DNA from: Octopus vulgaris
Taxonomy: Eukaryota
NCBI GenBank assembly: GCA_951406725.2
Contig: OX597819.1
Span: 8,308,001-8,372,000 of the forward strand
Direction of reading: 5' to 3'
DNA: 64,000 nucleotides
Every line of letters begins with the position of its first letter. Positions within the stretch are counted from its first letter, which is position 1. The translations under genes and the position numbers were made by a program. This document shows, in pieces, positions 8,081-61,212 of this stretch. The notes under the pieces are model-generated. The model saw nothing but the letters and a program-made list of their open reading frames with translations. It had not been told where the DNA came from and did not search any database.

Positions 8081-8172
<92 letters not shown>

Positions 8173-8374
8173 GTTGATTCGCTAGCTTCTGCACGCATTT
8201 TTTTCTCTCCTTGTTTCTTTCCGTGTTTCTTTTCTGTGTATCTTTCTGCTGAAGAGCGTTGGCTCGAAACGTAAAAGACTTGTTTTATTTATATTCCTGA
8301 GCGCCATACTAATACAATTGTTTGTTTGTATTCCACCTGCCTTCGTCTTTTGTTTATTTTCATAAAGCTTGCCG

Positions 8375-8375
<1 letters not shown>
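8173..8375 (+). mobile_element. (TA)n-embedded short element with hammerhead-like fold at 8241-8278
   Basis: TCTTT-CTGCTGA-A-GAGC(GTTG)GCTC-GAAA-C-GTA-AAAGA. Related copy at ~61050-61212. Confidence 0.65.
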
Positions 8376-8464
<89 letters not shown>

Positions 8465-10697: not shown

Positions 10698-10712
10698 CTA
10701 TATATATATAGG

Positions 10713-10800
10713 AAAATATTGAACGCTTCACGAATTTGCGTATCATCCTTGCGCAGGGGTCATGCTAATCTTCTATCTCTCTCTCTCTCTCTCTCTGTAT
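10713..10800 (-). pseudogene. U6 snRNA pseudogene (3' ~65 nt)
   Basis: Reverse strand AGAAGATTAGCATGACCCCTGCGCAAGGATGATACGCAAATTCGTGAAGCGTTCAATATTTT matches canonical U6 with 3 substitutions. The 5' stem-loop and promoter are absent. Confidence 0.93.
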
Positions 10801-10825
10801 ATATATATATATATATATGCATATA

Positions 10826-25044: not shown

Positions 25045-25084
<40 letters not shown>

Positions 25085-25085
<1 letters not shown>

Positions 25086-25830
25086 AATGAGGATAAAATT
25101 TCTTTCGAAAAAAAATATTCTTTTCGAAAAAAATTTCATCAATGGCCAGCATATCAAAAAATATCTTTAAAGGTTAAATTTATAAACAATTCATAAATGA
25201 GGGCAAAGGAAAAAAATTTCCAATGCCAAATATGCCGAAAAATTGAACATATTGTCCATTAACCATATAATTTTTTCACAAAACGCACGCTACTCGAAGA
25301 AAGGCCGACAGAAATTTGTAAAAATTCCATTATTACCATATCGGACCGATTTCAGGGTTAGCTTATAACTGCCCTCCCTTCGTCAGTGATACATGTGGCA
25401 GAAGAAATAAATGAGATACTTACTCATACCCATGGAAGAAGCAAACACTAAGTCATGAGCACAATTAAGTACCCCAAATACATCCAAAATAGAAATACTC
25501 CAGCCCATTCAAGACACGTGCGATTTGAAATGAAGGCTCTCACAGAGTGAGATAGTCCGGAAGTGAACGCTTAAATTTATATCTAATGGGTATGAGTAAG
25601 TATCTCATTTATTTCTTCTGCCACATGTATCACTGACGAAGAGAGAGAGCTCTTAGTAGCTAACTCTGAAATCGGTCCGATATGGTAATAATGGAATTTT
25701 TTACAAATTTCTGTCGGCCTTTCTTCGAGTAGCGTGCGCTTTGTGAAGAAATTATATGGTTAATGGACAATATGTCCAATTTTTCGGCATATTTGGCATT
25801 GGAAATTTTTTCCTTTGCCCTCATTTGTGA

Positions 25831-25835
<5 letters not shown>
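25085..25835. mobile_element. (TA)n-embedded element with ~245-bp inverted arms, each carrying a hammerhead
   Basis: Arms ~25187-25432 / 25586-25835 with a ~155-bp spacer. Hammerheads at 25338-25392 (-) and 25627-25683 (+): CTGACGA-AGAG..CTCT-GAAA-TCG-GTC. Confidence 0.8.
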
Positions 25836-25908
<73 letters not shown>

Positions 25909-26230
25909 CTGAAAGAGAGCGCAACTAATTTCCTGTCTATCTATCCCTGATATATATTGCACACACATATTCTCACCACCTAATACACTCACGAATACGA
26001 ACAAATGCACATTCAAACCAAGATACATGCCCTCAAATACACATACGCATATATACGTATTCACATATTCACACACACACACACGCTCACACTCATATAT
26101 ACACAGACATGACAGAATTAAATAGACACGCAATAAAACATCGTTTTATCTTTATTCTAACTTGAAAAGGTTTATATTTTTTATTAATTGACATTTTTAT
26201 GTTTCAGGTTCTATATGTGACTGTTTCGTC

Positions 26231-27199
26231 ATACCACGCACAAAAGAAGCCTTGAAACTGTCCGAATTTCAAAGAGGTTGTATTGTGGGCCAATCCGAAG
26301 CTGGACTAAGTCACCGTAAAAGTGCAGACCTTGGGATCCCGTTTTCTACAGTTAAAAGAGTGATTGTGCAATTCACAAGAGAGGGGAAGGAATCCCTATC
26401 ACCTAACCCAGGTCAACTAGGACCCTCTGACAAGACCCTTCTCTTTGTTAAGAGAAGTGTTGTGGTTAATCCTAGTTGCAAGGTCTCTAACATAGCAGAA
26501 CAAATTTATTTCAGTCCCAGAACGGCTGTCAGGTGTCTCCACAAACATGGCTACTATGGCAGAGCAGCAAGAAGGAAGCCATTTCTACCAGCGGATATCA
26601 AGTAGAGAAAACATTGGGCCAGTGAGATGGTAGGGACGCCATAGTATTTTGGACACTGTCATATTCTCTGATGAGTCCAGAGAATATTTTCTGATAGTGG
26701 TCGAGTGTGGATCTGGTGGCTGTGAGATCAAAAATTTGACGTGAAAAGATTTCAGCTAACAATGAAACAAGGCAGTTATTTTGTAATTATCTGGGGAACA
26801 ATTTGGAGCAATAGTCGAGCAGAGCTGGTAGAGCGTGAGGAAAGTATGATCTCAGACAAATACGTGTCCATTTATCAGAAAGGACCCATTCAATCTTCTC
26901 CAGTGGAGAAATGATTAAAGAACACGGCTAAAAGACCTAAGATTAGTTGGAAGAGAATGGCATTTAAAAGCGTCCATGACCAAGCAAGTCACCAGATATG
27001 GACCCTATTGAACACCTCTGGGGCATAATGGGCAGGATACTTCGTAAAAAGAACAAGAAAGCATCTTCAAAGCCAAATCTTTTGAGATAACTGCATGAAA
27101 GCAAGAAATTCTTCAATATAGTATTCTTTGTCTGATCAGTAGCATGCCTAATAGGGTCCTTGCATTGAAAAATGCAAAGGGAATGTCTACTAAATGTTA
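26231..27199 (+). pseudogene. Tc1 DDE transposase pseudogene
   Basis: PRTKE..LSEFQRGCIVG (HTH), ARRKPFL, IFSDES, P.KSPDMDPIEHLWG, SSMPNRVLALKNAKGMSTKC. Multiple stops and frameshifts. Confidence 0.88.
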
Positions 27200-27545: not shown

Positions 27546-28807
27546 TTCATATTGCGATAACTAATAAATGATTTTAATGTATAATCCAGATTTAAGTAAA
27601 TATTAACGATTAAAAGTTTGTCTATTTATTTCTGTCATGTCTGTGTATATATGTGTATGTATGTATCTCTGTGTGTGTGTGTGTGTATGTGTGTGTGTGT
27701 GTATGTGTGTGTATGTATGTGTGTGTATGTGTGTGTGTATGTGTGTGTGTGTGTGTATTAATTGAAGAAGAGAGAGTCTATTTTCATGTCTGTCTATCTC
27801 TGATATATGTTGCTCACACGCACCCTCACCTCTCAATACACTCACAAATACGAACAAATTCACATTCCAACCAAGGTACATATACACAAATACATATAGA
27901 CATATATACACACACTCATACACAAATATAGACGGAAAATGGGAAAAGAAGGAAAAGAAGGACGTAGAGATAGAAAGAGACAGAGGGACATGAGTCAAGA
28001 GAATTGTTGAAAGTTTCTTAACAGAATACAACGAATTGGCTGAATATTCACAAAGTTGATTTATAACTAGTTTAGAAACCTCTGACTTTCTTCATTCACA
28101 TCTTGAGCAAGCCTGTACACAGCTGTCGACCTGGTAGATGTAATAGCCAAATTTTCTCAAATTCCATAATACAGTTTTAACAAATGATTCGTTAAATAAT
28201 GTGGTCCAGAGTTCTCTACACATAGAAAATGGCGAGATGGTCACGGCTGTATGTCCTCGATCATAGATGTGTTGGATTAAAGCTGATCTGGAACTATTCA
28301 ACAACAACAACAATCACATCTTCTACATGGTCATTTTGCTTCTTAGAAATGACCAACAAATTTACCTCACATTAGGTACGCCTGTCTTTAAAAGGGCAAT
28401 GACACACTGTCAATGTAGTCCTAAATACGCAATGCTTGCAAGAAGAATAAAAAAAACTACGGGTTGATCATAGCTAGCATTTCCTTCTTTGCTGATCTGG
28501 ACCTGAAATACAACTGAGTGCTATTTTCGTGTTGTCATTGTTTTGTTGACGGTTAGATCAGATCGAACGGAAATAAGATTAAAAGACATTCTACTCCTAA
28601 CCATTCCTTACATATTGATGTAAGTGCCTCGTGTACCCTTATCAGACGGGTAGTGATGATGGGTATACTGGGCTTCGTATATTTTACCCCAGTGTAACTT
28701 TGATGGCATGCACTGCTCTCTCACTAAATGATGCTGCTGCTGATGATGATGATAGTAATAATAATAATAATGATAATAACAACAACAACAACAACAACAA
28801 CAATAAC

Positions 28808-60880: not shown

Positions 60881-61212
60881 TGAATGCTCGAAATAAGGAG
60901 TAGATAGACAGCCGGCAGCAAATGAAAGGTCGTTCTCCGTGTTACTTTTCCATTTATCTCCCGTTAAATACGTTGTTTGCGTATTTAACTCGTTTGTTTT
61001 CGTACTTCATGTTGTTTACACAGTTGGTGATGTCCTCGCTAGTCACTACACATTCTTTATTTCTCTCCTTGTTTCTTTCTGTGTTCCTTTCTGTGGAAAA
61101 GCGTAGGCTTGAAACGTTAAACAGTTTTTTCACTTTCCGAGCGTTAAACTAATACATCTGTTTCTTGTCTACACCACCTGTCTTCGTCTTTTGTTTCTTT
61201 GTGAATTCTCCC
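60878..61212 (+). mobile_element. Two adjacent (TA)n-type elements (relatives of 10826-10995 and 8173-8375)
   Basis: Degenerate hammerhead CTGTGGAAAAGCGTAGGCTTGAAACGTTAAA at ~61090-61121. Confidence 0.6.

What the first reader, a model, noticed from the sequence alone, without database searches (positions are those of the whole stretch)
25187..25835. Inverted arms whose hammerheads show compensatory stem II changes
Seen: the two ~245-bp arms are highly similar, but diverge in the ribozyme stem II/loop. One reads CTGACGA-AGGG...CCCT-GAAATCGGTC and the other CTGACGA-AGAG...CTCT-GAAATCGGTC, a paired G-C to A-U change with different loops while the core is unchanged. Inference: direct covariation evidence for the RNA structure. 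The arms probably come from two different template copies rather than a simple DNA fold-back.
Basis: partly seen in the sequence, partly recalled or inferred. Interest (0 to 1): 0.75.

Follow-up and report, generated by a model that had tools for sequence, protein, structure and literature searches.

The report
Retrozyme arms with swapped hammerhead stem
This is one of more than 800 copies of a small repeat carrying a predicted self-cutting RNA, a new member of a known kind of mobile element; its two back-to-back halves match closely except for a short piece of the ribozyme that matches another subfamily and was likely copied from a second RNA during insertion.

Summary
Window 25084-25588 (-) is one whole ~499-bp unit of a hammerhead-bearing repeat. 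25586-25834 (+) is an inverted, truncated unit. (TA)n flanks both ends, and the two ends lie about 100 nt apart in the unit: a Penelope-type insertion of a non-coding retrozyme (807 intact cores).

The G-C/A-U pair is a subfamily marker: G-C 397, A-U 226, A.C 36, G.U 28. It records one event, not evidence special to this locus. A second compensatory pair, and more in an older sister family, support stem II.

The arms are not two wholly different templates. Outside stem II they are each other's nearest relatives (4 of 220 sites differ; rare alleles shared). The left arm carries five subfamily-B1 markers in an A background.

The same stem-II-only swap separates the arms of 3 of 43 other inverted pairs, against 0 of 104 for control marker pairs (p=0.024). 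Most likely the reverse transcriptase briefly switched to a second RNA at the ribozyme; later gene conversion is the main rival.

Cleavage and expression are untested, and the partner element is only a lead. Known kind, with a modest mechanistic clue.

The parts
25048..25083 (.). (TA)n target microsatellite, left; boundary ambiguous by a few bases
   Evidence: sequence; 128 of 166 inverted insertions have (TA)4 or more at both outer ends
25084..25588 (-). Left copy: one full ~499-bp unit plus about 6 nt, ending at the distal end site; A2-lineage background
25084..25185 (-). ~100-nt one-sided extension ('tail') between the two preferred 3' ends; holds a long hairpin (unit positions 447-495)
   Evidence: 130 of 166 inverted insertions have one end of each type; fold
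25334..25400 (-). Predicted type I hammerhead of the left copy: stem I, CUGACGA (25386-25380), stem II, GAAA, palindromic stem III, predicted cut 3' of 25344
   Evidence: cleavage not tested
25354..25379 (-). Stem II/loop II tract with five subfamily-B1 markers (25377, 25369, 25365, 25364, 25356) and one private change (25370); tract bounded by shared rare alleles at 25401 and 25318
25434..25585 (-).
   Evidence: present upstream of the arm in tandem arrays and single copies
25586..25588 (.). Head-to-head inversion junction with 3-nt ATG microhomology
   Evidence: 77 of 177 junctions show 1-6 nt overlap in the BLAST alignments
25586..25834 (+). Right copy: 5'-truncated unit (positions 154 to about 400) ending at the proximal end site; subfamily A2, closest to locus L002
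25619..25687 (+). Predicted type I hammerhead of the right copy; stem II AGAG/CTCT with an AG insertion; predicted cut after 25677
   Evidence: cleavage not tested
25835..25905 (.). (TA)n target microsatellite, right
   Evidence: sequence

Best explanation
The locus is a head-to-head insertion, in a (TA)n tract, of one full and one truncated unit of a ~500-bp non-coding repeat with a predicted hammerhead ribozyme; the two units share one lineage except for a short stem II tract in the left unit, which was likely copied from a second RNA when a borrowed Penelope-type reverse transcriptase briefly switched templates at the ribozyme. Shown: the unit structure, tandem arrays, two preferred 3' ends used one per arm, subfamilies, compensatory pairs and the mosaic left arm. 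Inferred: a PLE protein nicks both strands of (TA)n and primes two cDNAs from two internal sites about 100 nt apart on the same RNA or on sister RNAs from one source. The template is a circle or an uncut multimer, because the copies read through the cut site. The cDNAs join head to head at a microhomology. The palindromic stem III would pair two RNAs into a dimeric hammerhead and bring their stem II regions together, which would favour a short excursion onto the partner RNA. The G-C/A-U pair arose once, in the source lineage of subfamily A, and was likely kept by selection on the transposing RNA.
For: Element: tandem units of about 475-500 bp; 174 of 307 loci inverted, and 130 of 166 with one end of each type; 128 of 166 flanked by (TA)n on both sides; circular MFE -142.4 against -101.5 +/- 3.6 kcal/mol in 30 shuffles. 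Structure: 2 pairs change on both sides and 98.9% of cells pair in 10 representatives that I chose; core changes 14 observed against 32.6 expected in sibling units (these units were only partly free of ascertainment). Common origin of arms: sibling units differ 2.4/2.7/3.6% against 3.9/4.5/7.5% for random same-subfamily units; the window arms differ 1.8% outside stem II. Recurrent swap: both 210 and 231 (and all five A/B1 markers) differ in 3 of 43 arm pairs, against 0 of 82 for 379+388 and 0 of 22 for 129+141 (p=0.024). Unit table: non-A stem on A background 8, A stem on non-A background 0, concordant 118 and 129 (window and mismatch-selected loci left out). Patched units are not a clade (5.0% apart, against 4.7% to other A units), and L266, L303 and L193 share rare alleles with their unpatched sibling. 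The complete patches run from the older family (B1, 2.6%) into the younger (A, 2.0%), which fits the time of insertion. Literature: both-strand nicking, two internal initiation sites, a predicted dimer and unprocessed RNA as template in PAc (PMC11167929).
Against: Only 3 independent informative pairs besides the window, and p is modest. L193 was first picked by eye, though it also lies in both systematic lists; L224 came from a search with the left copy, which favours such mosaics. Stem II has the densest markers, so patches are easiest to see there. Short mosaics also occur elsewhere: 395/397 in L337, the complex unit in L119, and 304/313 in the window itself, where the right arm matches L002 and the left does not. 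Partial reverse patches (A loop on a B background, leaving 231 as C) exist in 5-6 units. There is no pile-up of 5' truncations at the cut site (7 starts at 240-248, a background level). The age gap between A and B1 is small against its spread (sd about 1.2%). Pair 2.1-1.1 is an A.C mismatch in 102 of 104 copies, and changes at paired stem II sites were not fewer than expected (45 against 36). No autonomous element with this unit as its terminal repeat was found.
Confidence: 0.5

Rival explanations
1. Both arms were copied from one A2 template, and the left stem II was overwritten later by short-tract ectopic gene conversion from a B1 genomic copy or cDNA, perhaps after a break at the long inverted repeat.
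For: Hundreds of donors at 90-95% identity. Other short mosaics exist (L337, L119, window 304/313). Position 231 ends up as C in nearly all patches of both directions, which suggests heteroduplex repair. Short conversion among SINE subfamilies is recalled knowledge; one search gave no paper that I read on it.
Against: 0 of 118 units with a full A stem carry non-A alleles at both 379 and 388, although more donors and a shorter tract would favour that. There are 0 complete A stems on non-A backgrounds against 8 the other way. None of the 8 is a complete C-type stem (7 B1, 1 B2-like), although C is the older family.
Confidence: 0.33
2. Each arm was copied in full from a different RNA: an A2 unit and a pre-existing A2/B1 recombinant unit of the same source array.
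For: The arms also differ at 304 and 313, where the right arm matches L002. Whole-arm discordance exists (L031, B1 against C). L338 joins a PLE arm to a retrozyme arm. L304 has a mosaic stem in both arms.
Against: No second A2-background unit with a B1 stem among 642 fragments. Patched units have different backgrounds, so each would need its own recombinant source. This only moves the swap one step back.
Confidence: 0.12
3. Assembly or polishing artefact, or independent point mutations.
For: The junction and the patch were not bridged by any listed contig in 4 other runs (inconclusive).
Against: Five linked markers match B1 exactly. The patch carries its own rare change (217A), as do the patches in L224 and L303. 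Point mutation at about 3% per site cannot give five matching changes.
Confidence: 0.05

Closest known systems
Non-LTR retrozymes of animals (Cervera and de la Pena 2020, PMC7229834; Li et al., bioRxiv 10.64898/2026.07.22.740005)
   Same: Non-coding, highly self-paired unit with one type I hammerhead per unit; monomers, dimers and multimers; subfamilies with different ribozyme variants; stem III of one pair plus a palindromic tetraloop, as in axolotl HHR_Amex1, which cuts well only as a dimer.
   Different: Unit of 475-500 bp against the 150-450 bp described. Mostly dispersed head-to-head insertions rather than long arrays. Long stem II with a 2x2 internal loop. In the parts I read, no stem II exchange between arms or subfamilies is described, and the bioRxiv main text has no 'octopus' or 'mollusc'.
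Minimal hammerheads of Penelope-like elements (Cervera and de la Pena 2014, PMC4209133)
   Same: Helix II of 7-8 bp, short helix I, an extra A between 9 and 10.1, G10.1-C11.1, palindromic helix III. [quoted passage not shown]
   Different: Here the extra A can pair with an extra U. Pair 2.1-1.1 is A.C. No linked RT-endonuclease ORF was found for this unit.
Penelope-like element insertion structure (PMC8557442, PMC3846280, PMC11167929)
   Same: Inverted 5'-truncated copy at the 5' end, partial tandems, a tail at one end only, microsatellite targets.
   Different: Tail of about 100 nt rather than 30-40 nt; element non-autonomous. The near-strict one-end-type-per-arm rule (130 of the 133 insertions with two typed ends) and the common ancestry of the arms are measured here.

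Membership tests
Type I hammerhead ribozyme | Core CUGANGA, GAAA and NUH triplet in type I order | tested here: met
   both arms; 807 genomic matches, control 0
Type I hammerhead ribozyme | Helices I and II flanking the core | tested here: met
   MFE fold; pair table; 2 double changes in stem II, none in stem I within the family
Type I hammerhead ribozyme | Watson-Crick pair 1.1-2.1 closing helix I | tested here: not met
   A.C in 102 of 104 units; G.U in the sister family. That natural variants tolerate this is recalled, not checked.
Type I hammerhead ribozyme | Match to an Rfam hammerhead model | tested here: not met
   none at gathering score or E<=10
Type I hammerhead ribozyme | Self-cleavage at the GUC site | not testable with these tools
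   needs an in vitro assay
PLE-type minimal/dimeric hammerhead | Long helix II, extra A after position 9, G10.1-C11.1, palindromic helix III | tested here: met
   (self-duplex of the stem III segment, 6 bp, -4.5 kcal/mol); features from PMC4209133
Non-LTR retrozyme | Tandem repeat with a type I hammerhead in each unit | tested here: met
   L003 has four tandem units with cores
Non-LTR retrozyme | Unit of 150-450 bp, non-coding, highly self-paired | tested here: inconclusive
   fold z about -11; the ORFs of 90 aa or more that overlap the locus run through the (TA)n tracts; unit is 475-500 bp, slightly above the stated range
Non-LTR retrozyme | No LTR, primer-binding site or polypurine tract | not tested
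   no dedicated search run
Non-LTR retrozyme | Expressed as linear and circular RNA | not testable with these tools
   no RNA holder on record; contigs only
Penelope-type insertion | Head-to-head inverted truncated copy, one-sided tail, microsatellite target | tested here: met
Autonomous Penelope-like element | RT plus GIY-YIG ORF between terminal repeats | tested here: not met
   no such ORF at the locus; no fetched locus showed this unit as the terminal repeat of a PLE

The most novel reading that the evidence does not exclude
Stem-II-only swaps are a genomic footprint of two different retrozyme RNAs paired through a dimeric hammerhead inside the Penelope retrotransposition complex. The reverse transcriptase crosses to the partner RNA at the ribozyme and back, so ribozyme modules are shuffled between subfamilies during insertion. 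That would be in vivo evidence that these minimal hammerheads dimerize between molecules, and would help explain why they vary so much within a genome.
Probability: 0.28. Interest if true: 0.75.

Novelty: new member of a known kind. Interest (0 to 1): 0.45.

Why it matters
The element and its compensatory changes are ordinary for Penelope-associated hammerheads. Two by-products are useful. First, the family gives numbers on how inverted Penelope-type insertions form: each arm uses a different end site and both usually share a template lineage, which fits two-site priming on one RNA source. Second, the recurrent stem II swap makes an open question testable, namely whether minimal hammerheads pair between RNA molecules in vivo and whether that drives their fast diversification.

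Tried and rejected
Rfam: no hammerhead match.

No RNA holder listed on record. Contigs of four runs only guessed to be RNA cover the unit in short pieces, and one joins the unit's end to its start, but contigs cannot separate a circle from a tandem or RNA from DNA. Not used as evidence.

Independent check of the junction and patch: no listed contig bridges them, inconclusive. High depth at 25400-25490 in run X16 suggested a larger family, but that segment has only 427 exact matches in the assembly. Rejected for this assembly, unexplained for the run.

A recombinant A/B1 master subfamily as the source of all patches: rejected, the patched units are not closer to each other. Reverse transcription stopping at the cut site: no excess of truncations there. 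Hairpin-templated (quasi-palindrome) correction as the cause of covariation: thought unlikely because the AG/AA internal loop persists in all subfamilies and in the sister family; this is inference.

A family search for PLE proteins in the genome returned an error, accession not in the library. ORF scans and tblastn of the fetched loci were used instead and gave one lead (L338).

Literature searches listed no title or abstract start on stem II exchange in retrozymes or on this family. The library lacks most subscription papers, and supplements (for example of PMC4209133 and PMC8557442) were not read and may list this family. Earlier-findings look-ups by sequence and by words were empty.

Full report
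Positions called 'unit positions' count along the left copy on the minus strand, with 1 = window 25586 and 499 = window 25088.

1. Observation. Both hammerhead-like motifs are present as described, on opposite strands. The arms align at 94% over about 250 nt. There are 11 substitutions in 246 sites, 7 of them in stem II and loop II, plus an AG insertion in the right arm's stem II. Predicted cuts follow 25677 (+) and 25344 (-). Rfam gave no hammerhead match. The MFE folds give stems I and II as drawn, but with weak z-scores.

2. What the element is. The arm has 2790 first-look candidates in the 2.8-Gb genome, and the intact core pattern has 807 exact matches with 0 in the control. Mapping fetched loci shows a unit of about 475-500 bp that occurs singly, in tandem and inverted. 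The window holds one complete unit on the minus strand (25084-25588) joined head to head, at a 3-nt ATG microhomology, to a unit covering positions 154 to about 400. The apparent spacer is the first 153 nt of the left unit. Among 307 distinct loci, 174 are inverted, 76 single and 57 tandem or other. These loci were chosen by several searches and are not a random sample. Of 166 inverted insertions with both ends in view, 130 have one arm ending near 400 and the other at the distal site near 500, 3 have two ends of the same type, and 33 have at least one other end. 128 of 166 have (TA)n on both sides. This matches the inverted truncated copy, one-sided tail and microsatellite bias described for Penelope-like elements (PMC8557442, passages; PMC3846280, passages), and the two internal initiation sites with both-strand nicking shown for PAc (PMC11167929, parts 1-2 of 4 read). 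The unit folds far better than shuffles as a circle (-142.4 against -101.5 +/- 3.6 kcal/mol, 30 shuffles), as described for retrozymes (PMC7229834, parts 2-3 of 6 read). 409 fragments span the predicted cut site, and only 7 begin at 240-248, a background level. So the template was likely circular or uncut.

3. The ribozyme. Stem I has 4 bp, a 4-nt bulge and 5 bp. Stem II has 4 bp, an AG/AA internal loop, 4 bp and a 6-nt loop. Stem III is one A-U pair around UCGG, and that segment is self-complementary (6-bp duplex, -4.5 kcal/mol). This fits the minimal, dimer-type hammerheads of PLEs (PMC4209133, parts 1-2 of 4 read). Pair 2.1-1.1 is A.C in 102 of 104 units, which would be expected to lower activity (inference). 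Cleavage is untested.

4. Covariation. Genome-wide counts for pair 210/231, within the 807: G-C 397, A-U 226, A.C 36, G.U 28; the remaining 120 have other stem changes. Phi is 0.80, but this reflects descent. A-U marks subfamily A; G-C marks B and C. Pair 216/225 changes C-G to U-A in subfamily C (65 and 32 of about 105 units in the sample not selected on stem II). If four changes fell at random on the 16 paired stem II positions, two complete pairs would arise with probability 0.015. On 10 representatives that I picked, 98.9% of cells pair, two pairs change on both sides, and slid controls pair 28-37%. That tool warns that relatedness inflates such scores, and the count of double-change pairs was not above shuffles (297 of 500). 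An older sister family, 64-70% identical over most of the unit (L373, L382), keeps the core and the AG/AA loop. Read by eye from the listed matches, it has A-U at 211/230 and 215/226 and, in some copies, C-G at 217/224. In 83 sibling units the core had 14 rare changes against 32.6 expected and stem I 33 against 48, but stem II pairs had 45 against 36. So the fold is supported by few but independent events, and the locus adds nothing beyond showing two subfamily alleles side by side.

5. One template or two. Outside stem II the two arms are each other's nearest neighbours among the 405 fragments then in hand, with 4 differences in 220 sites. They share alleles at 186, 269, 282, 288 and 366; of 357 other units, 273 share none, 75 one, 8 two and 1 three. 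The parts of the left unit that the right arm does not cover are A2-type, like L002, L006 and L012. Its stem II has all five B1 markers (210, 218, 222, 223, 231). The foreign tract therefore lies within 187-268. The arms also differ at 304 and 313, where only the right arm matches L002, so the mosaic may have more than one tract. In general, sibling units are closer than random units of the same subfamily (A 2.4 against 3.9%, 22 pairs; B 2.7 against 4.5%, 9 pairs; C 3.6 against 7.5%, 4 pairs). Only 1 of 105 inverted pairs with 60 or more shared sites differs along the whole arm (L031; the window and 53 mismatch-selected loci were left out).

6. The swap recurs. L193, L266 and L303 show the same five-marker difference between arms that otherwise share rare alleles. 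That is 3 of 43 pairs covering 210 and 231, against 0 of 82 for 379+388 and 0 of 22 for 129+141 (Fisher p=0.024). Per unit: 8 non-A stems on an A background, 0 full A stems on a non-A background, 118 and 129 concordant. Seven of the 8 are B1 and one is B2-like with extra changes; two of them (L051, L067) lack upstream markers. The patched units are not a clade. Results against a clean hotspot: L193 was first chosen by eye; L224 came from a search that favours mosaics; stem II has the densest markers; L337 has a 395/397 patch; L119 holds a complex mosaic; and 5-6 units carry a partial A loop on a B background while keeping C at 231. Position 231 is C after almost every patch in either direction, which I cannot explain.

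7. Mechanism. I favour a brief template switch onto a B1 RNA during reverse transcription (0.5). The complete patches are confined to the ribozyme where borders can be set, and run from the slightly older family into the younger (B1 2.6%, A 2.0%, C 4.4%). No comparable patches appear at 379/388, where DNA-level conversion from all B and C copies should be more frequent. A dimeric hammerhead would place two RNAs in register at this spot; that step is inference. Later gene conversion (0.33), two full templates from a recombinant source (0.12) and artefact (0.05) are the rivals. My confidence in the element's identity is about 0.9, and in the mosaic left arm about 0.9.

8. Partner. No locus showed this unit as the terminal repeat of a coding element. 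One locus, L338 (1 of 307), joins a 5'-truncated PLE on the minus strand directly, head to head, to a retrozyme arm, with (TA)n at both outer ends. Its reading frame has RT motifs, a C-X4-C-X2-C linker and a weak GIY-YIG match (E=0.0025, below the cut-off). The linker suggests the Neptune clade (PMC8557442 passage). That PLE has its own, different hammerhead-like motif and no DNA similarity to the unit. It is common near the fetched loci, so chance adjacency is not excluded. This is a lead.

9. Known or new. The element is a new member of the non-LTR retrozymes, that is, non-autonomous PLE derivatives (bioRxiv 10.64898/2026.07.22.740005, part 1 of 5 and passages read). Compensatory changes and opposite-strand motif pairs are already described (PMC4209133). 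I found no report of stem II exchange in nine searches (listings only, apart from the papers named), with supplements unread. Earlier notes on this genome concern other, rearranged hammerheads and do not bear on this plain type I motif. The host looks octopus-like from genome size and repeats; that is my guess, also voiced in those notes.

10. Verdict. Real, well explained and of a known kind; interest 0.45, carried by the stem II swap and the end-site statistics.

Noticed in passing
L338:6163-9034 (G000:C2 near 45.99 Mb): Composite insertion: a 5'-truncated Neptune-like PLE arm joined head to head, without TA, to a retrozyme arm, with (TA)n at both ends; candidate mobilizing partner and a case of two different RNAs in one insertion.
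   Followed up: partly
window 8171-8379 and 61069-61200: 3'-end remnants of the L338 PLE family. The core match at 8249-8269 lies in the first and looks like that family's minimal hammerhead.
   Followed up: partly
L373, L382; also L377, L381, L394, L398, L399; L378, L379, L385-L387, L402: An older sister family of this unit, and at least two further repeat families with type I hammerhead-like cores, the same palindromic stem III and different stem II.
   Followed up: partly
unit position 231 (window 25356 and 25665): After patches in either direction this site is almost always C; unexplained, possibly biased heteroduplex repair.
   Followed up: partly
window 25400-25490: Summed contig depth about ten times that of the ribozyme region in run X16, not matched by copy number in the assembly.
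   Followed up: partly
window 25596-25601 (+) and the matching site on the left copy: A GTAAGT splice-donor-like motif just upstream of the ribozyme; 5' truncations cluster at unit positions 144-161. Penelope terminal repeats hold an intron and a start site.
   Followed up: no
window 10712-10816 (-): U6 snRNA match (67 bits) whose 5' part is replaced by microsatellite; likely a truncated retrocopy.
   Followed up: no
window 26252-26950 (+): Broken reading frame that resembles a Tc1/mariner transposase (recalled resemblance); 25903-26056 is repeated at 27756-27909.
   Followed up: no
L341:867-2366 and L339:1217-1700: Other PLE fragments lie directly beyond the (TA)n that ends a retrozyme insertion, so several families share the same microsatellite targets.
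   Followed up: partly
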